Virus record (IMG/VR): IMGVR_UViG_3300020601_000005
Reading direction: 5' to 3' (one strand)
DNA: 64,000 nt
Source: a virus
This document shows, piece after piece, positions 43,246 through 64,000 of the stretch (positions are counted from its first letter, which is position 1; each line of letters begins with the position of its first letter). Position numbers and translations under genes: made by a program. A model generated the notes under the pieces. It was given only the letters and a program-made list of their open reading frames with translations. It had not been told where the DNA came from and ran no database searches.

Positions 43246-44415
43246 ATGAAACGTGTGACTGACGAATTCAAGCAAGAATTCATTTCGGGCCTAAATGCAA
43301 TGTTCCCTGACGTGGTTACATCAGGGCTCGTATCTAACGCTCAGATTACTGAGTATATGAAAAAGACTAAAGATAAAAAGTGGCCGACGTGGCTCACTCG
43401 TCCCGACGCTCGCGCAAGTCGTGGCGTGTATTTTATTACTGCGCAAAAGAAATCAAATGTTGTGCCTATGAATGTTCCAAAACCCGTGGCAGTAGTGCAA
43501 TCTACTGACACTAAGCCGCTAGTTCCTGTAAAGGATCCAGCATTCGTACCTTTCGGTATTTACAAAGATGTTGAAACTATCGTCAAGTCTCGACAGTTTT
43601 ATCCTGTGTATATCTATGGACCTACTGGTAACGGTAAGTCTACTGCAGTAGAACAGGCTTGCGCAAAGCTCAAGACTCCGATGATTCGTGTTAACTTAAA
43701 CATGATGACAGACGAAGATCAATTGATCGGCACTAAGACTCTTGTAGATGGTAACATCGAAATTGTCGAAGGTCCAGTATTGATTGCGATGCGCGCAGGT
43801 ATTCCGCTATTGCTCGATGAACTTGATGCGGGTTCTGCAAATACTTTGCTGTGTTTGCAGCCAATCCTTGAAGGTAAACCGTACTTTTTCAAGTTGAAGA
43901 ATGAATTGATTATTCCTGCAGAAGGTTTCAACGTCTTTGCTACTGGTAATACCAAAGGCAAAGGTTCAGATGATGGCCGTTATATCGGTACAAACATTCT
44001 CAACGAAGCTTTCTTGGAACGCTTTGCGATTACTCTAACTCAAGATTATCCTTCAACTGGTGTTGAACGGAAAATCGTAGAAAATATCATGGGTCAATAT
44101 GACTGTTACGATGAAGACTTTGCAACATCCCTTGTAAAATGGGCTGATGCAATCCGTCGAACCTTCAATGATGGAGGTATCGATGAAAGTGTTACAACTC
44201 GCCGACTGATTCACATTGTACGCGCCTTTAGTATCTTTAAAAACAAGACTAAGGCAATTGAGTTGTGTACCAATCGATTTGATGAAGTAACACGACAGGC
44301 TTTCATTAACCTCTTTGAAAAGGTGAGTACTGATCCGGATTCTGATCTACTTGCTTCTAATGAAAGCGCAACTGTTATTATTAATGATGGAATTGATGAT
44401 GGAGATACACTATGA
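43246..44415 (+). CDS. CobS/MoxR-like AAA+ ATPase
   Basis: GPTGNGKS, LLLDELD, ATGNTKGKGSDDGRYIGTN.LNEAFLERF. Confidence 0.9.
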   Translation: MKRVTDEFKQEFISGLNAMFPDVVTSGLVSNAQITEYMKKTKDKKWPTWLTRPDARASRGVYFITAQKKSNVVPMNVPKPVAVVQSTDTKPLVPVKDPAFVPFGIYKDVETIVKSRQFYPVYIYGPTGNGKSTAVEQACAKLKTPMIRVNLNMMTDEDQLIGTKTLVDGNIEIVEGPVLIAMRAGIPLLLDELDAGSANTLLCLQPILEGKPYFFKLKNELIIPAEGFNVFATGNTKGKGSDDGRYIGTNILNEAFLERFAITLTQDYPSTGVERKIVENIMGQYDCYDEDFATSLVKWADAIRRTFNDGGIDESVTTRRLIHIVRAFSIFKNKTKAIELCTNRFDEVTRQAFINLFEKVSTDPDSDLLASNESATVIINDGIDDGDTL

Positions 44416-49546: not shown

Positions 49547-52075
49547 ATGAAATTTTATACTAATGTGAATCGTTATGGCAATAATATCCTTCTACGTGGT
49601 TATGTAGATGGTAAACGTGTCAATCGTAAAGTTAAGTTTAGTCCGACGCTGTACACCAGGGCAAAAGGGCAAACTCAGTTCAAAACTTTAGATAACGTAT
49701 TTGTCGAACCTAAAAAACTTGACACTATGCGTGATGCAAAAGACTTCATGGAACGTTACTCTGACGTAAGCAACTTTGAAGTATATGGTAATACAAACTA
49801 CATTGCTCAGTTTGTGGCCGAAGAATACCCAGGACAAATCCAATTCGATCGATCTAAAATCCGAATCCATGATATCGATATCGAGGTAGCATCCGACGAT
49901 GGTTTTCCAGAACCAGATCAAGCTAATCATCCAGTAACTGCAATTACAATCTACGATAGTATTACTAATGTGTATTTTGTGTGGGCCATGGGTGATTACG
50001 ACGTTGATGCTCGCGACGATAAGATTAAAGATTGTAATATCCGCTATACTAAGTGCGTGGATGAACAGCACTTGCTTAAATGCTTTATTAAGTTTTGGTC
50101 TGATGAGTTTACTTCTCCGGATGTTGTAACTGGTTGGAACATTCGTGCATTCGATATTCCATATCTGGTTAACCGTATTAATCGATTGTTTGGCGAGGAT
50201 GCAATTAAGTCACTATCTCCATGGGGTTCTGTCCAAGAGAAGATGGTAACTATGCGGAAGGGTCAAGTTCAAATCTATGAGATCACTGGTATTGCTCAGG
50301 TTGATTACATGGATCTGTTCATGAAGTTTGGCTATTCATTCGGTCCTCAAGAATCGTACTCGTTAAATCACATTGCAAACACCGTACTCGGTGAAGAGAA
50401 ACTATCATATGAAGAGTATGGAGATCTACACACTCTCTACAAAGAGAATCATCAAAAGTTTATCGATTACAACATTCGTGACGTTAACTTGGTTGAGCGA
50501 ATAGAAGATAAGATCGGTTTGATGACTTTATGTTTTACTATGGCTTATAAAGCTGGCGTAAACTATAATGACACATTCGGAACTACTGGTATATGGGATA
50601 CGCTGATCTATCGTTATCTTCTTGAACAGAACATTATCGTTCCTCCTAACAAGGATAGTTTCAAGACCGATTACGAGGGTGGTTATGTAAAAGAACCTCA
50701 ATGTGGTGTACACGACTGGGTTGCTTCGTTTGACGTCAACTCTCTGTATCCTAATATTATTGTCCAATGGAACATGTCACCAGAGACTATTCTCAAAGGT
50801 GATATTGAACCAAACATGAATGTTGATAGGTGTTTAAATGAATTTAAGAATCCGCACGCTGACAAATCTATGGCTGCTTCGGGTCAGTATTTCGATAATT
50901 CTCGTCAGGGTTTCATGCCGAAGATTATTGAGGCTATGTACGATGAGCGAGTACAAATCAAGAAGAAGATGCTTGATTCAAAAAAAGAACTTGAAAAGGT
51001 CGACAAGACTAACAAGACTGAAGTATACCGTATCGAACGTGATATCGCGACATTTGAAAACCAACAAATGACCGTTAAGATTCTTCTTAACTCTCTTTAT
51101 GGTGCGTTAGGTAATCGTTACTTCCGTTACTTTACGATGGAAATTGCAGAAGGTATTACACTAACTGGTCAATACATCATCAAGTGGGCAGAGAAGAACG
51201 TGAATGCGTATCTCAACACCGTCATGAAAACTAACAACGACTATGTGATTGCAATCGATACTGATTCTGTCTATGTTTGTCTAGGTGCACTGGTTGATCA
51301 AGTTATGCCTGGTAAGTCAAAAGATAAAGTTGTCGACTTCCTTGATAAGGTATGTGCCAAGATTGAAACCGATGTACTCGATGTTGCATTCAAGGAGCTG
51401 ATGGAAAACACCGGTGCGTTTAAGCAACGTATCTCCATGAAGCGTGAAAGTATTGCCGATCGTGGTATTTGGTCTGCCAAGAAGCGATACATTCTGAACG
51501 TATGGGACAATGAAGGTGTTCGTTACACAAAGCCTAAGCTAAAGATCATGGGTATTGAAGCTATTAAGTCTTCTACCCCAGCCCCATGTCGTGAAGCTTT
51601 TAAGGATCTATTTAATATCTTGATTTCAGGTACTGAGCAACAGACTCAAGAGTTTATCGCAGACTTCCGTAAGAAGTTTAACTCATTGCCTGTTGAAGAG
51701 AAGTCTTTCCCTCGTGGCGTTAGTGCGGTTCAGAAGTATGTAGATAAGAAGACTAAGTCTTACATCAAAGGTACTCCTATAAATTCACGTGCTGCTATCT
51801 TACATAACTACTTGTTGGATCGTCATGGATTGAAAAACATTGCTCCTATTCGTGCGGGTGAAAAGATCAAGTATGTGTATCTGAATCCACGCAATCCACT
51901 TCGTGAAGATGTTATCGGCTTCCAAAATATTCTTCCAAAAGAATTTGATATGCATCGCTATATCGATAACGCAAAACAATTTGACAAAGCATTCCTCGGG
52001 CCCGCTAAAATCATCTTAGACTCAATCGGATGGAAGGCTGAAGAGGAATCATCACTAGAGGACTTTTTTGGATGA
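49547..52075 (+). CDS. gp43: Family B DNA polymerase gp43
   Basis: Exo DIE, SFDVNSLYP, KILLNSLYG, DTDS, KKRY; no intron or intein evident. Confidence 0.98.
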   Translation: MKFYTNVNRYGNNILLRGYVDGKRVNRKVKFSPTLYTRAKGQTQFKTLDNVFVEPKKLDTMRDAKDFMERYSDVSNFEVYGNTNYIAQFVAEEYPGQIQFDRSKIRIHDIDIEVASDDGFPEPDQANHPVTAITIYDSITNVYFVWAMGDYDVDARDDKIKDCNIRYTKCVDEQHLLKCFIKFWSDEFTSPDVVTGWNIRAFDIPYLVNRINRLFGEDAIKSLSPWGSVQEKMVTMRKGQVQIYEITGIAQVDYMDLFMKFGYSFGPQESYSLNHIANTVLGEEKLSYEEYGDLHTLYKENHQKFIDYNIRDVNLVERIEDKIGLMTLCFTMAYKAGVNYNDTFGTTGIWDTLIYRYLLEQNIIVPPNKDSFKTDYEGGYVKEPQCGVHDWVASFDVNSLYPNIIVQWNMSPETILKGDIEPNMNVDRCLNEFKNPHADKSMAASGQYFDNSRQGFMPKIIEAMYDERVQIKKKMLDSKKELEKVDKTNKTEVYRIERDIATFENQQMTVKILLNSLYGALGNRYFRYFTMEIAEGITLTGQYIIKWAEKNVNAYLNTVMKTNNDYVIAIDTDSVYVCLGALVDQVMPGKSKDKVVDFLDKVCAKIETDVLDVAFKELMENTGAFKQRISMKRESIADRGIWSAKKRYILNVWDNEGVRYTKPKLKIMGIEAIKSSTPAPCREAFKDLFNILISGTEQQTQEFIADFRKKFNSLPVEEKSFPRGVSAVQKYVDKKTKSYIKGTPINSRAAILHNYLLDRHGLKNIAPIRAGEKIKYVYLNPRNPLREDVIGFQNILPKEFDMHRYIDNAKQFDKAFLGPAKIILDSIGWKAEEESSLEDFFG

Positions 52076-52662
52076 ACCAATTATTAGATTATATAAAAGT
52101 TTATGATGATGTTCTGGATGAAAATATTTGCCAGAATCTGATTGACACATTTGAAACATTCAACCCACAAAAATCTCCATTCTATCGACAATCAAAAAAT
52201 TCATGGGATCTAGACTATCGTCAGTTTTATGAATTTGATATTGCACGAGTAGTTGAATTTAATCATTTCATAAATCCGGTATATAATGTTGCTAAGAATA
52301 TATTTGCACGATACAATCGTGAATGCGGTAGATTCTTTCCGGAAAAGATGGGTTTCGAAGATCTGCGAATAAAACGATATGATGCGAATGGAATTGATCA
52401 ATTTGGTTGGCATGCGGATGTTGGCAATTACGCATCAGCTCGCAGATTCTTAGTTATGTTCTTTTACTTAAATGATGTAGAGGAAGGAGGCGAGACCGAA
52501 TTTCAATTTTCTGGTGATTACTCGAAGGTCCCGGACTTTACAGTAAAACCTAAACGTGGTAGAATAGTAGTATTCCCCCCAATGTGGATGTTCCCTCATC
52601 GTGGTTGTATGCCTATAAGCGGATCAAAATACATCCTTTCGACCTATGCTCATTATCAATAG
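52072..52662 (+). CDS. 2OG-Fe(II) oxygenase (prolyl-hydroxylase-like)
   Basis: WHAD (HxD), FYLNDVEEGGETEF, distal H in FPHRG, K in SKY. Confidence 0.88.
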   Translation: MNQLLDYIKVYDDVLDENICQNLIDTFETFNPQKSPFYRQSKNSWDLDYRQFYEFDIARVVEFNHFINPVYNVAKNIFARYNRECGRFFPEKMGFEDLRIKRYDANGIDQFGWHADVGNYASARRFLVMFFYLNDVEEGGETEFQFSGDYSKVPDFTVKPKRGRIVVFPPMWMFPHRGCMPISGSKYILSTYAHYQ

Positions 52663-53750: not shown

Positions 53751-54069
53751 AGTTTTAGGTCGAATGATAGATGGCGTAGATACCCATGCGCTATCTCTCG
53801 AAGAAGGAGACTTTGCAGATATTATCTTTCTGTATAAGAATGTCTCCTTCGACGAGGATAAAGAAAACGACAAGCTAAAGCTTAGATTCGAATACGAAGT
53901 TATCGAAGTTCCAGAATATCGCCATGGATACGATAAGATCGAATTCGAAGCTGAATTAGGGGATTTTTTGGTACAATTGTTATTCTACGGATTAGAAAAA
54001 GACCACTTAGGATTTATTGATGACAACGAGCGTTCAACAGACCATCTTATCAAACCTCATTCACAATGA
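53725..54069 (+). CDS. Acidic protein at the T4 gp40 (head assembly chaperone) position
   Basis: Between uvsX and gp41, similar size; assignment mainly by synteny. Confidence 0.5.
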   Translation: MMTQLKPHKVLGRMIDGVDTHALSLEEGDFADIIFLYKNVSFDEDKENDKLKLRFEYEVIEVPEYRHGYDKIEFEAELGDFLVQLLFYGLEKDHLGFIDDNERSTDHLIKPHSQ

Positions 54070-55414
54070 GGAATTTTGCAGAAAAGTTTCTCCTTTCCTG
54101 AAGTCTGAGTACTTCACGGATCATTTTGAGAATGTTGTATTCAACACATTGCAGGACTTTTTTGCAAAGTACAATAAGCCTGCAAGCATGGATATCTTAA
54201 AGATCCAGATTCGTGATATTGAAAAACTAAACGGAGATCAAGTCGATAGTATCGATACATACATCGACAATCTAAACTTTCGTACTGATAACATGGAATG
54301 GTTAGTTGAGACCAGTGAAAAGTTCTGTAAAGATCGTGCAGTATACAACGCGATTCTAGATTCAATTAGTATCATCGATGGCAAAGATACTAAGACTAGT
54401 AAGGATGCAATTCCTTCTATCTTGTCCGATGCATTGGCGGTATCATTCGACTCTGCTATCGGCCACGATTACATTGAAGACTTTGAATCTCGATATGATT
54501 TTTATACTCGTGTAGAAGAGAAGGTTGCATTTGATATTGATCTATTGAATAAGATTACTAAGGGTGGTTTATCTCGCAAAACACTTAATGTAATTCTTGC
54601 TGGCACTGGCGTTGGTAAGTCATTGGCTATGTGTCATATGGCTGCATCAACTCTAATGCAAGGATTGAATGTATTGTATATTACAATGGAAATGGCAGAA
54701 GAACGTATCGCAGAACGTATTGATGCAAACCTTATGAATATGACCATGGAAGAAATGGCAACGGTTGATAAGGACATCTACGAGACTCGATTCGAACGTG
54801 TCGCCAAGAAGACCCGCGGTAAACTAATCATCAAGGAATATCCAACTGCATCTGCACACACTGGTCACTTCCAAGCTTTGATCGAAGAGTTGAAGATGAA
54901 ACGTAACTTTCTCCCCGATATGATTATCATTGATTACTTGAACATCTGTACTTCTTCTCGAATCAAGCAAGGTGCTAACGTTAACTCTTACACATATATT
55001 AAATCGATTGCTGAAGAAATCCGTGGTATGGCTGTTAAGTATAATGTTCCTATTTTATCAGCAACACAAACTACTCGAGGCGGCTATGACAACACGGATG
55101 TGGGACTTACTGATACTTCTGAATCTTTCGGATTGCCTGCTACTGTCGATTTTATGTTTGCTCTTATTTCAACGGAGGAGCTCGAAAACCTGGGTCAACT
55201 TATGGTTAAGCAGCTTAAAAATCGTTACAATGATCCTTCTTATTACAAGCGCTTTGTTATCGGCGTGGATCGTTCTCGGATGAAATTATTCGATGTCGAA
55301 GATTCTGCACAAAAGAATATCTCAGATTCTGGACAAGTAAACGATACACCAATCTTCGACAAGTCAGATTTTGGACAAAGAATGAAGTCAGTAGGCGAGG
55401 GATTTAAATATTAA
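54020..55414 (+). CDS. gp41: Replicative DnaB-like helicase gp41
   Basis: AGTGVGKS, ITMEMAEE.I..RIDAN, IIDYLNI, SESFGLPATVD, QLKNRY. Confidence 0.96.
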   Translation: MTTSVQQTILSNLIHNEEFCRKVSPFLKSEYFTDHFENVVFNTLQDFFAKYNKPASMDILKIQIRDIEKLNGDQVDSIDTYIDNLNFRTDNMEWLVETSEKFCKDRAVYNAILDSISIIDGKDTKTSKDAIPSILSDALAVSFDSAIGHDYIEDFESRYDFYTRVEEKVAFDIDLLNKITKGGLSRKTLNVILAGTGVGKSLAMCHMAASTLMQGLNVLYITMEMAEERIAERIDANLMNMTMEEMATVDKDIYETRFERVAKKTRGKLIIKEYPTASAHTGHFQALIEELKMKRNFLPDMIIIDYLNICTSSRIKQGANVNSYTYIKSIAEEIRGMAVKYNVPILSATQTTRGGYDNTDVGLTDTSESFGLPATVDFMFALISTEELENLGQLMVKQLKNRYNDPSYYKRFVIGVDRSRMKLFDVEDSAQKNISDSGQVNDTPIFDKSDFGQRMKSVGEGFKY

Positions 55415-55445: not shown

Positions 55446-55643
55446 ATGGGACCAGTGAGTGGATATTTCTCAGAACCAGGTACGTTAAACAGGACTAGCG
55501 AAGTCTTCGATAACATGGATGGTTCATATGTTGTTATGATGTATGAAGGAACTGATCTTCGCGAAGAGCGAATCATTGAAGGACATACATTGGATTATGC
55601 AGAAGACTGCGCAGAAAATTGGGTATTAGGAGTTATTAAATGA
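55446..55643 (+). CDS. Small hypothetical protein
   Basis: TGGTATAAT promoter and AAGGAG RBS; ends YAEDCAENWVLG. Confidence 0.65.
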   Translation: MGPVSGYFSEPGTLNRTSEVFDNMDGSYVVMMYEGTDLREERIIEGHTLDYAEDCAENWVLGVIK

Positions 55644-56062
55644 GTGTGAATTTGATTGAAGATATGGCGCATATGCACGACCACTATGGAGTACATACTG
55701 CAATTGAGAAGTTAACTGCAGAACAGTTAAAAACGTTCCTTAAATTTCGTATTGACTTTTTGCAAGAAGAGTTGGATGAGATGAATAAGGCTTATAATGA
55801 GGGCGGTGAAAGTGCAGCTGATGATACAGTTGATGCTTTGATTGATTTGGCTGTGGTTGCATTGGGTACACTTGATGCATTCCGAGTGAATGGTTATGAA
55901 GCATGGAACCGTGTTTATAAAGCAAATATGTCCAAAGTTGTTGGTATTAAAGAAAGTCGTCCTAATCCTCTAGGACTTCCAGACTTGATCAAGCCAGAAG
56001 GTTGGACTGCTCCGACTCATGTAGATAATGTTGGTTTATTGGAACAGGTATTTACAAAATGA
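55640..56062 (+). CDS. MazG/HisE-like all-alpha NTP pyrophosphatase (candidate dCTPase/dUTPase)
   Basis: QEELDE...DALIDL, V..ANMSK, KPEGW.AP. Confidence 0.8.
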   Translation: MSVNLIEDMAHMHDHYGVHTAIEKLTAEQLKTFLKFRIDFLQEELDEMNKAYNEGGESAADDTVDALIDLAVVALGTLDAFRVNGYEAWNRVYKANMSKVVGIKESRPNPLGLPDLIKPEGWTAPTHVDNVGLLEQVFTK

Positions 56063-57030
56063 TTGGTTTCACGGTTTTCAAATCTATCTTTGATAACAAG
56101 ACTGACGTAAGTGTCGACTTTGATAGCTTCGATAAGTTTGAAACTGCTTTATACCACTTGGCAACTAAGCCAGGTTATAAAGCACGGAAAGGCGAGTATA
56201 CCCCGAAAGGGGTTACTCCTTCTCCGCTGATATCTCCTGCAGTTTACAAAGAAGGAACCACCCGCGCCAACGCTAATGTAATTAAGTGGGCAGGTTGGGC
56301 CGCGGTAGATGTCGACCAAGCAGTGTTTGAGGGAAATCTAAAAGACGAGTTGCAGAAACGTTATGGTAACTGGCGTTATGTTTGTTATTCTACCGCCAGT
56401 AGTACGAATGAGCATCCTAAGTTTAGACTCGTCTTCCCTCTCTCCAGAGATATTCAGTCGAATGAAATCCGTCACTTCTGGTTTGCACTCAATACAGAAC
56501 TTGAGTCAATTGGAGATCTACAAACAAAAGATCTTAGTAGAATGTATTATGTTCCTGCTAAGTATCCTAATGCCAATAATTTCATTTTTAGTAATCCTGG
56601 CACTAATATTGAAGTAGATAGTCTTTTAGCAAAGCACGAGTATACGGAACGTACTGGAGATTCTTTCATGGATCGTCTACCAGAGTCTATGCAGAAAGAA
56701 GTGGTTGCATATCGCCAGAATAAACTTCGCGAGAGTTCACGAAGTTTCCATTGGACTTCATACTCAGATTGCCCATTCATTAATCATCGTTTGATCGGTG
56801 ATTATAAGGCAATTGCACGTACCGATGGTTCTGGTAGATACTCTATGATTTACAAGATCATGACGTCGATTGCATGTAATGCGGTTCGTCAAGGTTATGC
56901 AATCACAGAGTCTGAAATCTCCCAATTGATCCTCCAGTTAGATCGTGAGACCAGTAATATATACCAAAAACGACCATTGACCACAGAAGCTTCCAGAGCC
57001 ATAGAATACGCATACAAAACTGCAATGTAA
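56059..57030 (+). CDS. AEP-superfamily primase/primase-polymerase-like protein
   Basis: AAVDVD (motif I), YSTASS...PKFRLVFPL (motif II region), D..TKDLSRMYYVP (motif III), helical C-terminal domain. Confidence 0.7.
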   Translation: MIGFTVFKSIFDNKTDVSVDFDSFDKFETALYHLATKPGYKARKGEYTPKGVTPSPLISPAVYKEGTTRANANVIKWAGWAAVDVDQAVFEGNLKDELQKRYGNWRYVCYSTASSTNEHPKFRLVFPLSRDIQSNEIRHFWFALNTELESIGDLQTKDLSRMYYVPAKYPNANNFIFSNPGTNIEVDSLLAKHEYTERTGDSFMDRLPESMQKEVVAYRQNKLRESSRSFHWTSYSDCPFINHRLIGDYKAIARTDGSGRYSMIYKIMTSIACNAVRQGYAITESEISQLILQLDRETSNIYQKRPLTTEASRAIEYAYKTAM

Positions 57031-57074
57031 TACTTTAGTACTATATGTACAACAATTCGAACTTATAGTATAAT
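57028..57074 (+). promoter_or_regulatory. Early promoter TAATACTTTAGTA...TGTACA-17-TATAAT
   Basis: Near-identical upstream half to 63265-63311. Confidence 0.75.
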
Positions 57075-57080
57075 ATACCT

Positions 57081-57344
57081 ATGATTGACCAAAACAAAGC
57101 TGAACAAATCCTCCAAGCACTATTCGACCATGAAGTTATGAGTGAACACGATTTAGAAAATTTATCGTTTCTATTATCGTCTTCAGAAGAAACTTTATTA
57201 GATTGGTATAGCAAAGTGGATGAAGAAGACTTACGCTATGCTAGCACTATTTTGAATATTGCCCATAACTTCTTTAGCGACAATGCCGTGGCGATCGATA
57301 CTACACAAGCAAATCAGATTTTGAAAAAGTATATGTATGATTGA
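57081..57344 (+). CDS. Small acidic hypothetical protein, probably leaderless
   Basis: DLENLSFLL...WY...EEDLRYA; ATG begins 6 nt after the -10 box with no SD. Confidence 0.6.
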   Translation: MIDQNKAEQILQALFDHEVMSEHDLENLSFLLSSSEETLLDWYSKVDEEDLRYASTILNIAHNFFSDNAVAIDTTQANQILKKYMYD

Positions 57345-57891
57345 AATTGCGCAAAAGCTAAAAGACTCCGGAACAGTACGGATCCCCAAAGAAGAGATAG
57401 AAGACGATATAGCCTCAATGGCTGTGGCGATCTTTAGTCGTGGTGCAGATTCTAGAACGCAAGAAGAAGTCTTCCGAGACTGTAAACGTATTGCGATCGA
57501 GTTTGCTTTAGTAAAAGTTCTAGGCGGTGAACGTAACCCCAAAGAGTTTAACTTTAGAGACAAAGACTCGTATATTTGGGACGTTAAGGTTGACGGTAAG
57601 AAGTTTGAAGTAAAGCGACATAAAACCGGCGCTAAATACTTTACCTACTCTGGCAAGAAAATCGGCACATACATCAAAAACTGTATGGACATTGATTATC
57701 TAGTCACGGCTTATATGGATGAATCGGATGATAACTATATTATCGACTTTGCCATGATTGTGGATTCGAAGAAGTTTGAATTCTATTTTCAGAAAAGTCA
57801 GTATAATAGTTCATACTATTACGATCATCGTATAGCGACCAAAACCGGCGATTGTGTAGCCTTTGGTCTAAGAGATGCAACAATTTATTAA
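57337..57891 (+). CDS. PD-(D/E)xK nuclease-like protein
   Basis: Helix AIEFAL, then WDVKVDGKKFEVK. Confidence 0.55.
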   Translation: MIEIAQKLKDSGTVRIPKEEIEDDIASMAVAIFSRGADSRTQEEVFRDCKRIAIEFALVKVLGGERNPKEFNFRDKDSYIWDVKVDGKKFEVKRHKTGAKYFTYSGKKIGTYIKNCMDIDYLVTAYMDESDDNYIIDFAMIVDSKKFEFYFQKSQYNSSYYYDHRIATKTGDCVAFGLRDATIY

Positions 57892-57900
57892 GAGGTGAAC

Positions 57901-58257
57901 ATGACACAATATACACGAGCATCAGCAAATATTCTTCTTGAGGCAGCAGAACTTCAAGAACGTAAAGGATTAGATTATAATAATCCCAATTCCTCAGTAC
58001 AACAAGCAGACTATTATCCGCGTGGAGTGTGGTCTGTTATGGATATTATTAACGCTAAATATCTTCGCATGGTATCTGTTCTAGAGACTATGGAACAAGG
58101 CGGGAAAGCTAACTTTGAATCTATTGAAGATTCTGCATTAGATTTGATTAATTATGCATCGTTCCTTGCAGCATATATGCGTGGGCAGATTCCAGGTCAA
58201 GATGTGTCAAAGAAAGATATATTTGGCCGCAAAGTGATTAAAGGAGAAAATAAATGA
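57901..58257 (+). CDS. Nucleotide-modification-associated all-alpha domain (DUF1599/Nmad1-like)
   Basis: ELQERKGLDY...K..R...ESIEDSALDLINYA. Confidence 0.7.
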   Translation: MTQYTRASANILLEAAELQERKGLDYNNPNSSVQQADYYPRGVWSVMDIINAKYLRMVSVLETMEQGGKANFESIEDSALDLINYASFLAAYMRGQIPGQDVSKKDIFGRKVIKGENK

Positions 58258-58931
58258 TTCGAGTAGAAGATATACGTACAGAATTTAATAATGCATTACT
58301 TGCAGAACAATTTACAGTAGATCGTAATACAGGAGTTCGAACGATTGAGTTGTTGAATGCAACCTTTATTGCAGATGAAGATAAAATTTTTGGTACAGTC
58401 AATCAAGAATACGTAGAAAAAGAACTGAGCTGGTATCGTTCAATGTCTCTCAATGTTAATGACATTGAAGGCGGACCACCTGCCGTATGGGCGCAAGTTG
58501 CAGATCCAGACGGATTTATTAATTCTAACTATGGATGGTGTATTTACTCTGAAGAGAATGGTTATCAGTTTAAACATGTGTTAGAAGAATTAGCACGTGA
58601 TCCCAATTCTCGACGTGCTAATATGATCTATACTCGTCCTTCAATGCATACTGATTATAATAAGAACGGTATGTCCGATTTCATGTGCACAAATAACGTA
58701 CAATATGTTCTTCGGAATGGCCAACTGCATGCGATGGTGTATATGCGCAGTAACGATGCAATTTACGGTTATAAGAATGACTACGCATGGCAAAAGTTTG
58801 TACAAGCCCAATTGTTAATCGGACTTAATGCACGAACTTCGTCATCATATGGTTTAGGCCGTATTATGTGGAATGCTGGTTCTCTGCACATATATGATCG
58901 CCACTGGCACTTGATTAAAAAAGAAGCATGA
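58254..58931 (+). CDS. gp42: dCMP hydroxymethylase (T4 gp42-like)
   Basis: INSNYGW, SRRANMIYTRPSM, GMSDFMCTN (catalytic Cys), MRSNDAIYGYKNDYAWQ with Asp at the dCMP-specificity position (Asn in thymidylate synthase), GSLHIY. Confidence 0.9.
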   Translation: MIRVEDIRTEFNNALLAEQFTVDRNTGVRTIELLNATFIADEDKIFGTVNQEYVEKELSWYRSMSLNVNDIEGGPPAVWAQVADPDGFINSNYGWCIYSEENGYQFKHVLEELARDPNSRRANMIYTRPSMHTDYNKNGMSDFMCTNNVQYVLRNGQLHAMVYMRSNDAIYGYKNDYAWQKFVQAQLLIGLNARTSSSYGLGRIMWNAGSLHIYDRHWHLIKKEA

Positions 58932-59383
58932 ATTCGAAACGACAAACAAATAAATGGAATAACAGATATATTTCATTAGCCAAGGAAATTTCTGCTTGGA
59001 GTAAAGATCCAAGCAGAAAGATTGGTGCAGTTGCAATTGGAGAAAAGGGACAAGTTTTGTCTCAGGGATATAACGGATTTCCCCGTGGAATATTTGATTA
59101 TGAATCTCGGTACTCGAACAGAGAGACTAAATATCAATACGTAGTTCACGCTGAAATGAATTGCATTTATAATGCAACTTATAACGGAGTATCTTTGGCA
59201 GACTCTTCTCTTTTTGTGTGGGGATTGCCTGCATGTTCTGAGTGTGCTAAAGGGATCATTCAAGTAGGTATTAAGAAAGTTTACTGGTCTACTGATGAAG
59301 TGATTCCTGATATATGGGAAAAATCGTTAAAGCTTTCTGAAAATATGTTTAAAGAATCAGGCGTAGATATTATTAAGTTATGA
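58928..59383 (+). CDS. cd: dCMP deaminase
   Basis: WSKDPS.KIGAV, GYNGFPRG, HAE, C.EC zinc motif. Confidence 0.92.
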   Translation: MNSKRQTNKWNNRYISLAKEISAWSKDPSRKIGAVAIGEKGQVLSQGYNGFPRGIFDYESRYSNRETKYQYVVHAEMNCIYNATYNGVSLADSSLFVWGLPACSECAKGIIQVGIKKVYWSTDEVIPDIWEKSLKLSENMFKESGVDIIKL

Positions 59384-60531
59384 ACATTGAACCAACCAAA
59401 CATTATGAAGAGTATCTGCGATACTTTGAGTTAGCCACTAAACAACAAGAACTTTGTAACTTTGGTTGGTTACCTCATAGTGAGTCGAACATGGGTGATA
59501 GCCTAATGGAAAACGTTGAGCTATACGATGTGGTAGAACGTAAGTACGCAGGATTCTCTCAGATCATCAACGATTGCTTTTACGGTTGGACTGAAGAACA
59601 CCCATACTGGAAAAAGATGGAAAGTGGCAATGCCACCATCCAACGTCAAATTGTTGCTAAAGACTGGACTGGAAAACATTCAGACTTTAAATTGGCGGAA
59701 TGGCTCTATCTATTCATTTTACATCGTGTAACTGGTTCTGCAATTAACTACGCAACTAAACCATCAGGCTATCATAATACTATTATTTTCCATCTTCATG
59801 AATGTCGGACCATTGAAGATATGACGAGGATCGTGAGGATCTATCACAAGCCTTTCTATACTTCGGTTGGATACCAGTTTCCGGCATTCCCTAAACCACC
59901 AGAAGGTGGTGATTACAAACGAGGCGGTGATTACTACCTCTGTGAATATGCTCCACGACTTGCACGTGAAATGGCTGAATGGTTGGAAAAAGGTGGTAAG
60001 CGAGATCTACGTGAACTAGGTGGGTTTATGCTCGATTGGAATAAGAAGAATGGTTTGCGCCAATACTTCTTTCAGTACGCAGCAACAGTTGCAGATATTG
60101 CCGATTGGTTCCCTCAGTATGTAAATCGCGACTCTATGTTCTACTACGGAACCAATGCTCGTGAATGTATTTCTTATTTGGCAACTCCAACCAAGAAGAT
60201 GAATCAGGACCAATTCCTTGATGAGGTCATGCAACAAATCTACTTGGATACAGGATCGTTTCCATATAATGCAGAAGACGTGTGTTGTGATTACATCCGA
60301 TGGGTAGAGAACTATATTCGACCTGGAGCAGCGTATAACCATTTGGACTTTGATAAGGTGTGGTCTTCATGCAAGATTAAAGATCATCCATTTGGTAGAC
60401 AAGAGGCTATGTTACAATTAGGATTGGTAGATACATTCAATGGTATCACTAAACACCCATCCGATGATTATATTATTAAGAAGGCCGGTTTAACGGTAGA
60501 AGAATACAAAGCAAAATGTCAAAGCCTGTAA
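59380..60531 (+). CDS. Divergent amino-acid:DNA transferase / aGPT-pyrophosphorylase-like protein
   Basis: Collinear motifs GDSLM..V.LYDVV.R, LHRVTGS, FFQY..TVADI, YGTNA..CI and NAEDVCCDYIRW parallel the family pattern DDPIL..F.N..R, R.FN, F.AY...DL, GPGA..GL, E..LCE..KY as recalled. Confidence 0.55.
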   Translation: MNIEPTKHYEEYLRYFELATKQQELCNFGWLPHSESNMGDSLMENVELYDVVERKYAGFSQIINDCFYGWTEEHPYWKKMESGNATIQRQIVAKDWTGKHSDFKLAEWLYLFILHRVTGSAINYATKPSGYHNTIIFHLHECRTIEDMTRIVRIYHKPFYTSVGYQFPAFPKPPEGGDYKRGGDYYLCEYAPRLAREMAEWLEKGGKRDLRELGGFMLDWNKKNGLRQYFFQYAATVADIADWFPQYVNRDSMFYYGTNARECISYLATPTKKMNQDQFLDEVMQQIYLDTGSFPYNAEDVCCDYIRWVENYIRPGAAYNHLDFDKVWSSCKIKDHPFGRQEAMLQLGLVDTFNGITKHPSDDYIIKKAGLTVEEYKAKCQSL

Positions 60532-61511
60532 TTACAAATCCTATTAGCAATATTCCCAAGCTTGCAAACTCCCACGTACGGGGATGGTCACAGGTGTGGG
60601 CGGAACAGCTTAACGCTGAAGTGGATCATAAGTGTTCCACCAACATACTTAACGGATCGTTAGTGTACATCGAGCATGGTGTAAACTTTGGTGGAACACT
60701 TAATCTATTTGGCGGTGCGGGCCAAGATATTTTTGAGAAAATCGATCGTGTTATGCAATGTAAGAATGTTGTATCACTAGATTTCGACATGCCCAATTGG
60801 GGTGAACAACTGCGTAAACGTATCGGAAATGCAACTACATATGATGGAATCACTGAAAAGTGGTGTGATATGCTATCTAGTTGGTGTACATCAAACGTAC
60901 CATCTCTAAAGCAAGAAAATATCGATTGGCTCAATGACATTTCGGTGGGTGACAGTCATACTCCTGCTTTTTCTCAGGCAAATGATGTGGTGTTACGTAC
61001 TAACGGCAAAACATTGTTTGGTACATTAAAGAACGGTCTTAAGAATGAATTCCGTGGAATGACACCTAAAGGACAGATCACATTTAGTCTTGGTTCCATT
61101 GATATCCGTCATCACTTGCTTCGTCATGACGATAATCTAGATAATATGATATCAGAGTATGTTGCACAAGGCCAGGAACTTGAGCGTGAATATGGGGTGG
61201 ATGTATATTACGGAGCACCAGTGCCTGTCGAATATGAGGATAGGAAGCTTCCTAAGTCTGGATATTTCAAAGGTACTCCATTTTTTGGATCACGTGATGA
61301 TCGGATCCGACTTACGCTTAGGTTTATTGAACTACTAAATACACATAGTGGAAACAAGGTTATAATGCCCCCAGAGGAGTGGTACCATATGGATGGTGAG
61401 AAGTATGCCAAGATGCATATGGAAGCCAGTTCTAGTGTTCATATATCGCCAGAGTATTATAGGCGATATAATTGGGGCAAACAAGACTCCCTCGAGGGGT
61501 TTTTCAATTAA
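60516..61511 (+). CDS. Two-domain protein: BGT-like N-terminal domain plus SGNH-like domain (putative DNA-base acyltransferase/esterase)
   Basis: GTLNLFGG...VVSLDFDMP in the N-terminal half; VGDSH, LGSIDIRH and SSVHI in the C-terminal half. Confidence 0.45.
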   Translation: MSKPVITNPISNIPKLANSHVRGWSQVWAEQLNAEVDHKCSTNILNGSLVYIEHGVNFGGTLNLFGGAGQDIFEKIDRVMQCKNVVSLDFDMPNWGEQLRKRIGNATTYDGITEKWCDMLSSWCTSNVPSLKQENIDWLNDISVGDSHTPAFSQANDVVLRTNGKTLFGTLKNGLKNEFRGMTPKGQITFSLGSIDIRHHLLRHDDNLDNMISEYVAQGQELEREYGVDVYYGAPVPVEYEDRKLPKSGYFKGTPFFGSRDDRIRLTLRFIELLNTHSGNKVIMPPEEWYHMDGEKYAKMHMEASSSVHISPEYYRRYNWGKQDSLEGFFN

Positions 61512-61515
61512 ACTC

Positions 61516-61539
61516 AGGGACCACTAGGTCCCTTTTTTT
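61516..61539 (+). terminator. Intrinsic terminator closing the modification operon
   Basis: AGGGACC-ACTA-GGTCCCT followed by a T run. Confidence 0.88.
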
Positions 61540-61546
61540 ATAAATA
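61539..61546 (+). promoter_or_regulatory. Late promoter TATAAATA
   Basis: Exact consensus immediately after the terminator. Confidence 0.75.
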
Positions 61547-61572: not shown

Positions 61573-62316
61573 ATGGCCGCTCAACAAGGCTTCCAATACG
61601 AAATAAATGCAAGTAATATGCTTAAACCAATGGGCTTCGTGCCTAAATCGTTTAAGCCTGCAGGCGCTGGTCATGACCAGCCTGACTTAATGCTCTTGCA
61701 TAAAAAGAAAGAAGCCGGGTGTGAGCTTAAGATTACTGCTGCATCAGCAGGTTCATTGGTCATAAAATACGATTCTAAAGATAAGAGAAACCCTTGGAAG
61801 TTCGGTGATATTAAAGCCGACGAGGATGAGAAAAGGTTCATTGCTGATCTTGCTAAAGAGGTTAAGTTGTTTGACCTTATCAAAAAGCAATGGAAAGAAA
61901 AACCGTATAAAAGAGATAAAGACGTTGAATGGAATGCAACTGCTGGTAAGATGACTCCTAAACAAAGATATGAAAGAGATCGTGATACCTTTGCCGATAT
62001 CCGTGGTGAAATTCCTGCAACGAAAATAGAGCAGTATTATAATCGTAAAGATACACACTATGTCAATGTTGGCACGCATGGTTTCTATTTAATGGGAAAG
62101 GCAAACCCTCTGAAATTAAAAGGTGTTCCTACATTCGGTGCTTCTGCAAAGGCTACGTATAGAGCCCGTGTTCAATACAAGGGCTCTGGAAATTATCAGT
62201 TTACGTTTGAAATGCAATTTAGTATGAAATCTAAATCTCCATACAACATTGCTCCAGTTGATGGAAAGAGCGTTACTATTTTAAAAGATAAATTAAACCT
62301 GGGATGTTTTGTATAA
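61573..62316 (+). CDS. Restriction-endonuclease-like PD-(D/E)xK protein
   Basis: GFQYE helix, QPDLML, GCELK; Lys-rich. Confidence 0.65.
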   Translation: MAAQQGFQYEINASNMLKPMGFVPKSFKPAGAGHDQPDLMLLHKKKEAGCELKITAASAGSLVIKYDSKDKRNPWKFGDIKADEDEKRFIADLAKEVKLFDLIKKQWKEKPYKRDKDVEWNATAGKMTPKQRYERDRDTFADIRGEIPATKIEQYYNRKDTHYVNVGTHGFYLMGKANPLKLKGVPTFGASAKATYRARVQYKGSGNYQFTFEMQFSMKSKSPYNIAPVDGKSVTILKDKLNLGCFV

Positions 62317-63267
62317 ATGAAAAACTTTATAGACTTTTTAACTGAAGCCTCTGGTAGTTCTTCTAATGAACACTTTGGCGTTGCATATGAAACTGCAACA
62401 GCGATGCATTTGCATCATATGACTGGTTCTAAGACTAACAACGATCCAGAACATAAAAAACGAATGCAAGAGATTGGATCGAAGGGTAAAGCTGCTTTTG
62501 ACAAGCTTCCTGATCATCTAAAGAGTCGTGCTTTGCAATCAGCTAAAGCATCCGCCGAGTCTTATATTGAAAGTCTTAAAAAGAATCACAAGATTAATCC
62601 TGCTGATATTCATGAAGTTCATCATACTTCAAAGGGAATCGATCATTTGATTAATGCTAAAGCTGATCGTATTCAAAACCCGCATGACGTTGTTGTTAAG
62701 ACTAAAGATGGAAAACTACATGGAGCGTCTTTAAAGGCAACGCAAGGTACTCTAAGTAATAACGGTATCGGTACTTTCGACAGTCAGAATAAAGGTCATA
62801 TTAAAACTGAGGTTGGCTCTATATGGGCAAAAGGTAAAAAGAAAGCCGGCTTAGAAGGCAAGAGCGGAGCAGAAATTAAAGCCGTACGTAATGATCCTAA
62901 AGTAAAAGCTGCAAATAAAGAAACACAGGCAGAGGCTGCAGCACACCATAGTAAACAGTTCAACAAGGCTTCTATTGAAGATCAACGTAAGCATCTACGT
63001 TATATTATGAAATCTGAAAAACCTGCAGTACCATATGACTACGTCAATGGAGAAAAGAACAAGTCAGTTCCTAGCCATCAACTTGATCACGCTCAAGCTA
63101 TTGAGAAGTCTAAGAAGTTTGAAATGCGTCATACCGCCGGAAGTAATCTAGTTAAGATCCACGACGACGAAGGTAGACACGTGGCAACAGTTGAACACAG
63201 ACCGACTCATGGTGCATTCTCTGGAGTACAAGTTAATACTAAAATTGGTACTATGAAGGCAAGTTAA
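62317..63267 (+). CDS. Basic PD-(D/E)xK-like protein with capsid-targeting-like N-terminus
   Basis: MKNFIDFLTE leader; GVAYE, NPHDVVV, GASLK (SLK variant). Confidence 0.55.
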   Translation: MKNFIDFLTEASGSSSNEHFGVAYETATAMHLHHMTGSKTNNDPEHKKRMQEIGSKGKAAFDKLPDHLKSRALQSAKASAESYIESLKKNHKINPADIHEVHHTSKGIDHLINAKADRIQNPHDVVVKTKDGKLHGASLKATQGTLSNNGIGTFDSQNKGHIKTEVGSIWAKGKKKAGLEGKSGAEIKAVRNDPKVKAANKETQAEAAAHHSKQFNKASIEDQRKHLRYIMKSEKPAVPYDYVNGEKNKSVPSHQLDHAQAIEKSKKFEMRHTAGSNLVKIHDDEGRHVATVEHRPTHGAFSGVQVNTKIGTMKAS

Positions 63268-63311
63268 TACTTTAGTATTATATGTACAACAAATCGAAGA
63301 TATGGTATAAT
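63265..63311 (+). promoter_or_regulatory. Early promoter TAATACTTTAGTA...TGTACA-17-TATAAT
   Basis: Same family as 57028-57074; TGn-extended -10. Confidence 0.75.
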
Positions 63312-63319
63312 ATTAATAT

Positions 63320-64000
63320 ATGTTAAAGCTTAAAGAATTCATCGCCGAAGAAAAGAACACCCACATGGAACACGTTGAGGATATGATCTTCAATGAAGGA
63401 GTTGAGGGTGCACGTAAATCTATTTTATTCTTACGCGATCTTCGCGACATGTTAGCCGGCAGTTCTACATCTAAAGTTACTGCAACGGTAAAATGGGATG
63501 GTGCTCCGGCCGTTTTTGCTGGCGTAGATCCAAGAGATGGTAAATTCTTTGTTGCAAAGAAAGGCGTATTCAATAAATCGCCTAAGGTATATAAGACTGC
63601 GGCAGAAATTGATGCAGATACTTCGGGAGATCTTGCGGCAAAATTAAAGATCGCATTGATAGAATTCTCAAAGTTGGGCGTAAAAGAAGGTGTGTTCCAA
63701 GGTGATTTGATGTTCACCAAGAACGATCTTAAGAAAGAAAATATCGATGGACAGGATTATATAACCTTCCATCCAAATACTATTGTCTATGCTGTTCCGT
63801 ATAATAGTGAACTAGGCAAGAAGATTAGAGGTTCAAAGATCGGTGTTGTTTGGCATACGACGTATTCCGGAAAAACATTCGAGACTATGAAAGCAAGTTT
63901 TGGTAAAACTATAGTTGACAAGTTAAACGAGGTCCAATCCGTTTGGATGGACGATGCTAATTATAGAGATTATTCTGGCACAGCGACGTTCACGAAAGCT
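63320..64000 (+). CDS. DUF6267-like protein with ligase-type KxDG motif, 3'-truncated (not in ORF track)
   Basis: MLKLKEFIAEEKNTHMEHVED...TVKWDGAPAVFAG.DP.DGKFFVAKKG...FQGDLMF; frame appears open to the window end. Confidence 0.75.
   Translation, partial: MLKLKEFIAEEKNTHMEHVEDMIFNEGVEGARKSILFLRDLRDMLAGSSTSKVTATVKWDGAPAVFAGVDPRDGKFFVAKKGVFNKSPKVYKTAAEIDADTSGDLAAKLKIALIEFSKLGVKEGVFQGDLMFTKNDLKKENIDGQDYITFHPNTIVYAVPYNSELGKKIRGSKIGVVWHTTYSGKTFETMKASFGKTIVDKLNEVQSVWMDDANYRDYSGTATFTKA

What the first reader, a model, noticed from the sequence alone, without database searches (positions are those of the whole stretch)
57028..61539. Candidate new cytosine hypermodification pathway: hmC synthesis linked to an amino-acid:DNA transferase-like enzyme
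Seen: one promoter-to-terminator unit of mostly overlapping genes: small acidic ORF, PD-(D/E)xK nuclease, Nmad1-like, gp42-like enzyme with the dCMP-specifying Asp (RSNDAIYGYKND), dCMP deaminase, an aGPT-Pplase/AADT-like protein and a BGT-N/SGNH-like protein. Known: T4 glucosylates hmC; characterised AADTs act on kinase-activated 5-hydroxymethyluracil (phiW-14, SP10, ViI types). No full-length glucosyltransferase or hmU-DNA kinase was recognised here. Inference: this phage makes hmC DNA and decorates it by different chemistry, for example activation of the hydroxymethyl group followed by substitution with an amine, amino acid or sugar, giving a possibly undescribed base.
Basis: partly seen in the sequence, partly recalled or inferred. 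Interest (0 to 1): 0.88.

Follow-up and report, generated by a model that had tools for sequence, protein, structure and literature searches.

The report
Two-gene hydroxymethylcytosine DNA decoration module
An uncultured T4-like phage makes hydroxymethylcytosine as T4 does, but where T4 has its sugar-adding enzyme it has a conserved enzyme pair (a glycosylase-fold transferase-like protein and an esterase-fold protein), so its DNA probably carries a cytosine decoration that has not been identified chemically.

Summary
One promoter-to-terminator unit (57046-61540, + strand) encodes:
- a small acidic ORF;
- a T4 endonuclease IV (DenB)-like protein;
- an Nmad1-like protein;
- a true gp42 orthologue with the cytosine-specifying Asp;
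- a dCMP deaminase;
- two proteins with no family assignment.

The first of these two, P1 (59380-60531), folds with high confidence. Its best solved match is the PaMx11 amino acid:DNA transferase (Z 9.7), but it has no detectable sequence or profile homology to that family.

The second, P2 (60516-61511), has an SGNH-fold C-half that keeps Ser and His. Its N-domain resembles the T4 beta-glucosyltransferase N-domain only weakly.

New here:
- P2 and P1 are fused into one protein in other phages, and they travel together in unrelated phage lineages.
- The TS-family enzyme nearby carries the cytosine-type Asp wherever it could be read.
- Most relatives add a second P1 paralogue and a PLP-type enzyme. 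This window, and two independent assemblies of close relatives, carry only P1 and P2. That makes it the smallest version seen.
- Five near-complete relatives have no canonical hmU-DNA kinase or AADT family match. The closest of them has none of the four glycosyltransferase families searched.

The chemistry is inferred, not shown. This scan has already flagged the same cassette in at least 23 other genomes, so the window is a new, minimal member of that set.

The parts
55640..56062 (+). MazG-like nucleotide pyrophosphohydrolase. It lies upstream of the unit and is the likely dCTP-clearing enzyme of the pathway.
   Evidence: phrog_671 E 5.8e-19. Conserved upstream of the cassette in 34 of 80 related loci. 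The relative's orthologue carries PF01503 PRA-PH, weak.
57046..57074 (+). Promoter-like site TGTACA-17-TATAAT
   Evidence: 10 of 12 consensus matches. It lies 6 nt before the ATG at 57081.
57081..57344 (+). Small acidic ORF, 87 aa, function unknown
   Evidence: 17 D+E against 5 K+R. No significant family match. A 98-aa ORF sits at the same place in close relatives.
57337..57891 (+). T4 endonuclease IV (DenB)-like nuclease, 184 aa. Likely cuts unmodified dC DNA.
   Evidence: phrog_1360 E 7.5e-9. PF26887 Phage_T4_End_IV on the orthologue in L102 and L103. In T4 relatives denB has the same distribution as gene 42 (PMC2993671).
57895..58257 (+). Nmad1/DUF1599-like protein, 120 aa, GTG start
   Evidence: Pfam DUF1599 E 0.021, below cut-off. 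phrog_18404 E 4.5e-16 and phrog_1485 E 7e-15. Lies directly upstream of gp42 in 40 of 80 loci.
58254..58931 (+). dCMP hydroxymethylase, orthologue of T4 gp42
   Evidence: PDB 1b49 E 9.2e-80 over residues 3-221. The catalytic Cys (FMCTN) and the Asp179 equivalent (YKND) are aligned.
58928..59383 (+). dCMP deaminase
   Evidence: PF00383 E 1.1e-16. phrog_174 E 1e-39.
59380..60531 (+). P1: AADT-like, HhH-GPD-fold protein, 383 aa, with invariant E299 and C303 (E-D-x-x-C-D)
   Evidence: Model pLDDT 95. VIA top match is PaMx11 gp46/PUGT, Z 9.7, followed only by HhH-GPD enzymes. BFVD matches. Invariant residues.
60516..61511 (+). P2: two-domain protein, 331 aa. N-domain (1-135) has a conserved S19-H20 and an NLFGG motif. 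C-half (135-323) is SGNH-fold with GDSH at 145-148 and H309.
   Evidence: Model pLDDT 90. SGNH matches at Z 8-11, 50 of 50 rows. Invariant residues across a broad alignment. Sub-threshold BGT matches in homologues. phrog_13881 E 5e-93.
61516..61540 (+). Intrinsic terminator-like hairpin followed by a T run
   Evidence: 7-bp stem with 5 GC pairs, a 4-nt loop, then TTTTTTT.

Best explanation
This is a post-replicative hypermodification module for 5-hydroxymethylcytosine that works without a DNA kinase. Its catalytic core is the pair P2 plus P1.

Supply steps, supported by clear homology:
- The MazG-like pyrophosphatase and the gp42 orthologue turn the dC pool into hm-dCMP.
- The deaminase feeds dTMP synthesis.
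- The DenB-like nuclease attacks unmodified dC DNA.
- The phage DNA is therefore made with hmC.

Decoration steps, inferred:
- P2 binds hmC DNA through its BGT-like N-domain, with H20 as a possible general base for the hydroxymethyl oxygen.
- P2's SGNH domain (Ser147/His309) esterifies the hydroxymethyl group. This takes the place of phosphorylation by 5-HMUDK and creates a leaving group.
- P1 flips the base out. Cys303 attacks C6 and Glu299 acts on N3/N4, as Cys247 and Glu243 are proposed to act in PaMx11 PUGT.
- P1 expels the ester and adds a nucleophile (an amine or amino acid) to the exocyclic methylene.

This window has no PLP enzyme and no second P1 paralogue. Its product would therefore be the unprocessed primary adduct.
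For: - gp42 orthology with Asp.
- Same position as T4 b-gt, which lies directly downstream of gene 42.
- P1 fold: the best solved match is the AADT PUGT (Z 9.7, rmsd 3.9, 207 aa), and the next 20 rows are almost all HhH-GPD enzymes.
- BFVD: a 68%-identical protein is named 'Amino acid:DNA transferase domain-containing protein'. Weaker matches are 5-hmdU DNA kinase helical domains and Pplase1.
- Invariant E299 and C303, near-invariant D300 and D304. The spacing is the same as PUGT's E243, T244 and C247, the metal ligands and the proposed C6 nucleophile (PMC11472151).
- The motif is also kept in the paralogue X327 (hhalign 85%), and an E-x-x-C-C occurs in the C-part of Aeromonas phage ORF233c.
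- P2: SGNH fold, with GDSH, H309, E303 and three Arg invariant across a broad alignment.
- P2-like and P1-like domains are fused in proteins of 640-790 aa. They are adjacent in PolA-type and PrimPol-type phages that also carry an Asp-type TS-family enzyme.
- 48 of 49 gp42 homologues next to P1 have Asp.
- Five near-complete relatives have one TS-family gene each and no PF18723 or PF18724 match.
- The closest relative has no PF09198, PF11440, PF00534 or PF00535 match.
- The two-gene arrangement recurs in two independent assemblies.
Against: - There are no chemical data of any kind.
- P1 has no sequence or profile homology to characterised AADTs. Z 9.7 is only moderate for a helical protein.
- The equivalence of C303 and C247 rests on motif spacing and alignment ranges, not on a residue-level superposition.
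- The SGNH block III Asn is absent (G-S-I-D) and there is no block V Asp, so P2 may not be a classical acyl enzyme.
- The BGT-N likeness is sub-threshold (13.6-18.9 bits against a cut-off of 27; hhalign probability 7%).
- No acyl donor or nucleophile can be named.
- The rest of this phage's genome is unseen and could hold a glycosyltransferase. Four of five relatives have a GT1 gene far from the cassette.
Confidence: 0.5

Rival explanations
1. P2 alone does the chemistry. It O-acylates hmC, and the acyloxymethylcytosine is the final base. P1 only binds DNA and flips the base, as the helical domain does for the P-loop kinase in 5-HMUDK.
For: - The fused P2-P1 proteins mirror the layout of 5-HMUDK, a catalytic domain plus a helical domain.
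- The P1 model matches the 5-hmdU DNA kinase helical domains of PhiW-14 and SP10.
- PF18723 HMUDK_hel weakly hits the C-part of Aeromonas ORF233c and one P1-family member.
- A known precedent for simple O-derivatisation of hmC is 5-carbamoyloxymethylcytosine (PMC8670742).
Against: - P1 keeps an invariant Glu and Cys in the same spacing as the proposed catalytic residues of PUGT.
- Many relatives add a second P1 paralogue and a PLP enzyme, which fits a substitution pathway better than a plain ester.
Confidence: 0.2
2. P1 replaces the hydroxyl of hmC directly, by Cys attack at C6 with no prior activation. P2 is an esterase that either frees the nucleophile from an ester-linked donor or trims the adduct.
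For: - There is no kinase and no obvious ATP-binding motif in P2.
- From general knowledge, not checked here: cytosine-5 methyltransferases can couple thiols to hmC through the same C6 chemistry without activation.
- Most matches to the SGNH domain are hydrolases.
Against: - P2's N-domain has motif-level and sub-threshold likeness to the DNA-acceptor domain of T4 BGT. This suggests that P2 itself faces the DNA.
- The strict pairing and fusion with P1 point to a shared substrate.
Confidence: 0.12
3. The pair does not build a new base. P1 is a DNA glycosylase-type repair or anti-defence protein and P2 is an unrelated esterase. The DNA carries plain hmC, or a sugar added by an enzyme elsewhere in the genome.
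For: - The P1 fold also matches true glycosylases such as AGOG, AlkA and EndoIII at Z 5-8.
- The rest of this genome is unseen.
- GT1 genes exist in four of five relatives.
Against: - The pair sits in the slot that b-gt occupies in T4.
- It is fused in other phages.
- It co-occurs with Asp-type hydroxymethylases across unrelated phage types.
- The closest complete relative has none of the four glycosyltransferase families searched.
Confidence: 0.1

Closest known systems
Thymidine hypermodification pathways of phages PaMx11, M6, ViI, PhiW-14 and SP10 (dUMP hydroxymethylase, 5-HMUDK kinase, AADT/aGPT-Pplase, often as a paralogous pair, and a PLP or FAD enzyme)
   Same: A 5-hydroxymethylpyrimidine is made before replication. 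The transferase has a glycosylase-like helical fold with a Glu...Cys motif. In most relatives of this window there is also a paralogous pair and a PLP-type enzyme (PMC8989533, PMC11472151).
   Different: The base is cytosine, because the hydroxymethylase is gp42-type with Asp. There is no P-loop DNA kinase; an SGNH-fold protein sits in its place. P1 is not detectable by PF18724 or PF18723 or by profile comparison. This window has neither the paralogue nor the PLP enzyme.
T4 hmC glucosylation (gene 42 followed by b-gt; a-gt)
   Same: gp42 orthologue, DenB-like nuclease, dCMP deaminase and the T4-like replication gene order. The modifying genes lie just downstream of gene 42.
   Different: There is no UDP-glucose-binding GT-B C-domain. 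At most the N-domain of P2 resembles the BGT N-domain.
5-hydroxymethylcytosine carbamoyltransferase, which makes 5-carbamoyloxymethylcytosine (MetaGPA study, PMC8670742)
   Same: A non-sugar derivatisation of the hmC hydroxyl. The gene sits next to a TS-family hydroxymethylase, a PRA-PH/MazG pyrophosphatase and a dCMP deaminase in uncultured phages.
   Different: That system is a single NodU/TobZ-type ATP-dependent enzyme of a different fold. Here there are two proteins of SGNH and HhH-GPD folds.
Aeromonas T4-like phages 44RR2.8t, 31 and 25: ORF233c family (phrog_17781, 795 aa)
   Same: The N-terminal 330 aa are homologous to P2 (31% identity, E 3e-35). These phages encode gene 42 and denB but no glucosyltransferase. 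The C-part has a weak HMUDK_hel match and an E-x-x-C-C motif.
   Different: The C-part is not detectably related to P1. The gene lies next to a sodium:solute symporter, not next to gene 42. It is uncharacterised.
Arabinosyl-hmC of RB69 and the pentosyl-cytosine of Shewanella phage Thanatos
   Same: T4-like phages with gene 42 that replace glucose with something else (PMC6024577, PMC12838424).
   Different: Those use nucleotide-sugar synthesis and glycosyltransferase folds. No such genes were seen here.

Membership tests
T4 gp42 dCMP hydroxymethylase | Full-length homology to the solved enzyme | tested here: met
   1b49 E 9.2e-80, residues 3-221 aligned to 7-225.
T4 gp42 dCMP hydroxymethylase | Catalytic Cys148, and Asp179 in place of the Asn of thymidylate synthase | tested here: met
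   FMCTN and YKND align with FMCTN and FRND of T4. The D179N mutant 6l18 shows N at that column.
Amino acid:DNA transferase / aGPT-Pplase (PF18724 ADDT) | Match to the family model or profile | tested here: not met
   No Pfam hit at E 0.1. The profile against PDB gives nothing at E 10. hhalign of the P1 family against the gp46 family gives probability 3.8%.
Amino acid:DNA transferase / aGPT-Pplase (PF18724 ADDT) | Two-helix-bundle, HhH-glycosylase-like fold | tested here: met
   8z2m_A is the top match of 48,161 chains: Z 9.7, rmsd 3.9, 207 aa. Nearly all of the next 20 rows are HhH-GPD enzymes. Foldseek alone is weak.
Amino acid:DNA transferase / aGPT-Pplase (PF18724 ADDT) | Glu-Thr-x-x-Cys active-site helix (E243, T244, C247 of PUGT) | tested here: inconclusive
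   E299-D300-x-x-C303 is invariant or nearly so and lies at a matching distance from the end of the aligned ranges. No residue-level superposition was available.
Amino acid:DNA transferase / aGPT-Pplase (PF18724 ADDT) | Works downstream of a 5-HMUDK P-loop DNA kinase on a phosphorylated hydroxymethyl group | tested here: not met
   No kinase in the operon. No PF18723 match in five near-complete relatives.
SGNH/GDSL hydrolase-acyltransferase superfamily (P2 residues 135-323) | Fold | tested here: met
   Z 8.2-11.3 and all 50 rows are SGNH proteins. Foldseek E 4e-4. An atlas row names an SGNH cluster.
SGNH/GDSL hydrolase-acyltransferase superfamily (P2 residues 135-323) | Block I Gly-Asp-Ser nucleophile and block V His | tested here: met
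   G145-D146-S147-H148 and H309 are invariant in 26 diverse homologues.
SGNH/GDSL hydrolase-acyltransferase superfamily (P2 residues 135-323) | Block III Asn (G-x-N-D) and block V Asp (D-x-x-H) | tested here: not met
   Block III reads G-S/N-I-D, with Ile where the Asn should be. H309 is preceded by S-S-V. E303 is invariant instead.
T4 beta-glucosyltransferase (PF09198, GT-B) | Match to the family model | tested here: not met
   P0002 gives no hit even at E 5. Three divergent homologues score 13.6-18.3 bits against a cut-off of 27, all in the N-domain.
T4 beta-glucosyltransferase (PF09198, GT-B) | N-domain likeness (I/L-N-F/L-F-G-G, then helix and strand) | tested here: inconclusive
   hhalign of the broad P2 profile against T4 BGT aligns P2 42-89 with BGT 54-98: E 0.0048, probability 7%. 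The narrow profile found nothing.
T4 beta-glucosyltransferase (PF09198, GT-B) | C-terminal UDP-glucose-binding Rossmann domain | tested here: not met
   The C-half is SGNH-fold.
T4 endonuclease IV (DenB) | Family model match | tested here: met
   phrog_1360 E 7.5e-9. PF26887 is on record for the orthologue. The Pfam copy used here gave no hit.

The most novel reading that the evidence does not exclude
An SGNH-fold enzyme built on the DNA-acceptor domain of T4 beta-glucosyltransferase is a new class of DNA-modifying acyltransferase. It activates hmC in place of a kinase. Together with one glycosylase-fold transferase it is enough to write an undescribed non-sugar cytosine base into the DNA of abundant aquatic T4-like phages. 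This window would be the minimal two-gene form.
Probability: 0.35. Interest if true: 0.88.

Novelty: new variant of a known kind. Interest (0 to 1): 0.76.

Why it matters
All characterised amino-acid or amine hypermodifications of phage DNA are on thymine and start with a DNA kinase. The known decorations of hmC are sugars and a carbamoyl group.

A widespread cassette that joins T4-type hmC synthesis to AADT-like and SGNH-fold enzymes would open a new branch of cytosine chemistry. The P1 family alone gave 954 metagenomic clusters, found in T4-like, PolA-type and PrimPol-type phages.

Such a base would:
- affect restriction, CRISPR and type IV defence outcomes;
- disturb nanopore basecalling of environmental viromes;
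- possibly give new enzymes for labelling 5hmC.

The two-gene form found here is the simplest construct to test. Cultured Aeromonas phages that carry the P2 domain and gene 42 but no glucosyltransferase, an open question since 2010 (PMC2993671), offer real virion DNA to analyse.

Tried and rejected
- Megablast of the unit and tblastn of P1 against 50,697 phage records found nothing.
- Pfam, PHROGs and NCBIfam gave nothing for P1. Pfam and NCBIfam gave nothing for P2.
- Scanning all 49 P1-family members against Pfam gave only scattered single weak hits. One was to HMUDK_hel at E 0.01.
- The P1 profile against PDB sequences gave nothing. hhalign of the P1 family against PaMx11 gp46, and against a 33-member gp46 family alignment, found no homology.
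- hhalign of the narrow P2 profile against T4 BGT found nothing.
- The C-part of Aeromonas ORF233c against P1, by BLASTP and hhalign, gave nothing.
- Complex prediction on P1 plus P2 gave no verdict: score 0.00, controls not run. This is neither for nor against binding.
- The protein-atlas search of the P2 N-domain gave one uninformative viral cluster at 0.76.
- The downstream ORFs 61573-62316 and 62317-63267 are not P1 paralogues. Homologues of the relatives' X327 and PLP-type genes are absent from the 64-kb window.
- GT1-like genes of the relatives have no counterpart in the window.
- No whole genome is held for the window.
- X327 and the PLP-type protein gave no match to PDB sequences.
- The Tenacibaculum phage PTm1 context (ribonucleotide reductase genes) added nothing.

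Full report
WHAT IS THERE

The window is part of an uncultured T4-like phage. The stretch from 35 to 57 kb carries, in order:
- a helicase;
- SbcD-like and SbcC-like nuclease subunits (the T4 gp47/gp46 counterparts);
- clamp and clamp loader;
- a gp43-type DNA polymerase (49547-52075);
- a 2OG-Fe(II) oxygenase;
- UvsX;
- a gp41-type helicase (54017-55414);
- a MazG-like pyrophosphatase (55640-56062);
- a gp61-type primase (56059-57030).

Nothing in 50,697 deposited phage genomes is close at the DNA level.

A TGTACA-17-TATAAT promoter-like site ends 6 nt before the ATG at 57081. A GC-rich hairpin with a T7 tail follows the last stop codon. Seven co-directional, mostly overlapping ORFs lie between them.

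THE KNOWN GENES

- 58254-58931 is an orthologue of T4 gp42 (E 9e-80 to PDB 1b49). The catalytic Cys and the Asp that replaces the Asn of thymidylate synthase are both aligned.
- 58928-59383 is a dCMP deaminase.
- 57337-57891 belongs to the T4 endonuclease IV (DenB) family (PF26887 on the orthologue). In T4 relatives denB has the same distribution as gene 42 (PMC2993671).
- 57895-58257 is Nmad1-like. The Pfam match is weak, but the PHROG matches are clear.
- The first ORF is small and acidic, as described.

Together with the MazG-like enzyme upstream, this is the standard kit for replacing C with hmC.

P1 (59380-60531)

No sequence library recognises P1. It is nevertheless very common. There are 954 clusters at 90% identity, most of them over 70% identical and lying on contigs of 150-190 kb. 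There are also 141 more distant representatives.

With a 49-sequence alignment the fold is predicted at pLDDT 95. An exhaustive structural comparison puts the PaMx11 5-PmdU glycinyltransferase gp46/PUGT first (Z 9.7, rmsd 3.9 Å over 207 residues). The queuine salvage enzyme DUF2419, AGOG, AlkA, EndoIII and MutY follow.

In the viral structure library:
- a 68%-identical protein is already named 'Amino acid:DNA transferase domain-containing protein';
- weaker matches are the 5-hmdU DNA kinase helical domains of PhiW-14 and SP10, and Pplase1 proteins.

At the sequence level there is no link. The P1 profile finds nothing in the PDB. Profile-profile comparison with a 33-member gp46 family alignment gives 3.8% probability.

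One detail is suggestive. The P1 family has an invariant E299 and C303, with D300 and D304 nearly invariant. In PUGT, E243 and T244 hold the metal at O4, and C247 is the proposed nucleophile at C6 (PMC11472151). The spacing is the same, and so is the distance to the end of the structurally aligned ranges. I could not obtain a residue-level superposition, so this equivalence is an inference.

P2 (60516-61511)

The model (pLDDT 90) has two domains.

Residues 135-323 are SGNH-fold. All 50 best rows are SGNH esterases or O-acetyltransferases, at Z 8-11 (Foldseek E 4e-4).

A 26-member alignment was built from divergent stand-alone forms, fused forms and the Aeromonas protein. The following are invariant across it:
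- G145-D146-S147-H148;
- G193, D196 and R198;
- E239, R243 and R263;
- M302-E303;
- S307 and H309.

The Ser and His of the SGNH catalytic set are therefore kept. The block III Asn and the block V Asp are not.

- P2 itself gives no Pfam hit.
- In three of four 28%-identical homologues, PF09198 (T4 beta-glucosyltransferase) is the only Pfam hit. It falls below the cut-off and always lies in the N-domain.
- A broad P2 profile aligns residues 42-89 with BGT 54-98, including I-N-F-F-G-G, at E 0.005 but 7% probability.

THE TWO PROTEINS BELONG TOGETHER

- Several representatives of 640-790 aa carry a P2-like N-half (31-32% identity, E 2e-37) and a P1-like C-half.
- In a PolA-type phage, a PrimPol-type phage and two short contigs, a P2-like gene lies directly upstream of, or one gene away from, a P1-like gene. 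The two TS-family enzymes that could be read there also carry the cytosine-type Asp.
- Among 80 related viral loci, P2 follows P1 in 64 of the 74 that have room downstream. gp42 precedes P1 in 45 of the 64 that have room upstream.
- In the near-complete genomes where gp42 is not adjacent, it lies elsewhere or across the contig ends. Each of the five has exactly one TS-family gene.
- 48 of 49 of these gp42 homologues have Asp at the specificity position.
- In T4 itself, b-gt lies directly downstream of gene 42, so the pair occupies the 'decorating enzyme' slot.

WHAT IS PARTICULAR TO THIS WINDOW

In all 64 of the related loci that carry both genes, one or two further genes lie between P1 and P2.

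- One is a roughly 325-aa protein, present in 56 loci. It is a paralogue of P1: hhalign 85%, E 6e-6, with the E-D-x-x-C motif aligned. Its nearest language-model clusters carry HMUDK_hel and ADDT.
- The other is a roughly 295-aa protein, present in 46 loci, of the 'threonine dehydratase'/PALP type (phrog_7093, E 7e-36).

That is the layout of thymidine hypermodification clusters: a paralogous AADT pair plus a PLP enzyme (PMC8989533).

The window has neither gene. P1 and P2 overlap by 16 nt. The same order is found in two independent assemblies of a 92%-identical relative. An 85%-identical relative has the paralogue. So this is a genuine minimal form, not an assembly accident.

IS THERE A CONVENTIONAL EXPLANATION?

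The window's own genome is not held. Five near-complete relatives (89-99% complete) were searched instead.
- None has a match to AGT, to HMUDK_hel or to ADDT. The AGT search rang in no genome and in no control, so it shows little.
- The only BGT matches are the sub-threshold ones inside P2.
- The closest relative (78% identical P1) has no GT1 or GT2 match.
- The other four have a GT1 gene far from the cassette, and one of them also has a GT2 gene. A sugar cannot be excluded for them.

MECHANISM

What is shown by homology: hm-dCMP synthesis, dC-pool clearing, and a nuclease of the family that cuts dC DNA in T4.

What is inferred: P2 brings an acyl-type group to the hydroxymethyl oxygen. This takes the role that phosphorylation has in the thymine pathways. 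P1 then uses Cys303 at C6 and Glu299 at N3/N4 to expel that group and add a nucleophile. With no PLP enzyme here, the primary adduct would be the final base.

Rivals:
- P2 alone makes a stable ester, and P1 only presents the base.
- P1 substitutes the hydroxyl directly, and P2 is a helper esterase.
- The pair has nothing to do with base decoration.

The complex prediction gave no verdict.

NOVELTY

I found no paper in the library that links an AADT-like or SGNH-fold enzyme to hmC.

Known hmC derivatives are glucosyl, arabinosyl or pentosyl, and carbamoyl (PMC6024577, PMC12838424, PMC8670742). [quoted passage not shown] They carry the P2 domain fused to another helical domain. That makes them a ready experimental entry point.

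This scan has already flagged the same cassette in at least 23 other genomes, with follow-up reports reaching a similar reading. My analysis was largely done before I read those notes, and it agrees with them. The contributions specific to this window are the minimal two-gene form, the P2-P1 fusions, the paralogy of the inserted gene, and the motif correspondence with the PUGT active site.

Noticed in passing
window 52072-52662: A 196-aa 2OG-Fe(II) oxygenase (phrog_61, E 1e-44) lies between the DNA polymerase and uvsX. This is a family that can act on nucleic acid bases. Its link to the modification pathway, if any, is unknown.
   Followed up: no
window 61573-63267: Two ORFs of 247 and 316 aa lie just after the terminator. 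They have no Pfam, NCBIfam or PDB match (phrog_26930 only, for the first). They are conserved in the 92%-identical relative but absent from the 80 more distant loci. Another first-reader note calls them restriction-like nucleases; this was not tested.
   Followed up: partly
window 63283-63311: A second TGTACA-17-TATAAT promoter-like site, with TG before the -10 box, lies upstream of the ORF starting at 63320 (phrog_455). It has the same unusual -35 hexamer as the operon promoter.
   Followed up: no
L001 4405-8385 (Aeromonas phage 44RR2.8t): The 795-aa P2-domain fusion ORF233c lies directly downstream of a phage-encoded sodium:solute symporter (PF00474, E 6e-53). This is an odd neighbour and could import a substrate.
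   Followed up: no
L002 734-4327: A 790-aa fused P2-P1 protein sits near a PALP-type gene on the opposite strand and a gp9/gp10-like baseplate gene. The fused form therefore also occurs in T4-like phages.
   Followed up: no
G002, G003, G005 (gp42 matches): The TS-family matches in three relatives are reported with one in-frame TGA inside the match. This probably means the match runs past the gene end into the overlapping next gene, but it was not checked.
   Followed up: no
window 58989-59019, minus strand: A 12-bp-stem inverted repeat lies inside the dCMP deaminase gene. It is scored as terminator-like on the minus strand, and its meaning is unknown.
   Followed up: no
window 43246-44415: A CobS-like 'porphyrin biosynthesis' ATPase (phrog_249, E 2e-102). 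Together with an hsp20-type gene near 48.7 kb (hsp20 per another first-reader note, not tested here), it may point to an aquatic cyanophage- or pelagiphage-like lineage.
   Followed up: no
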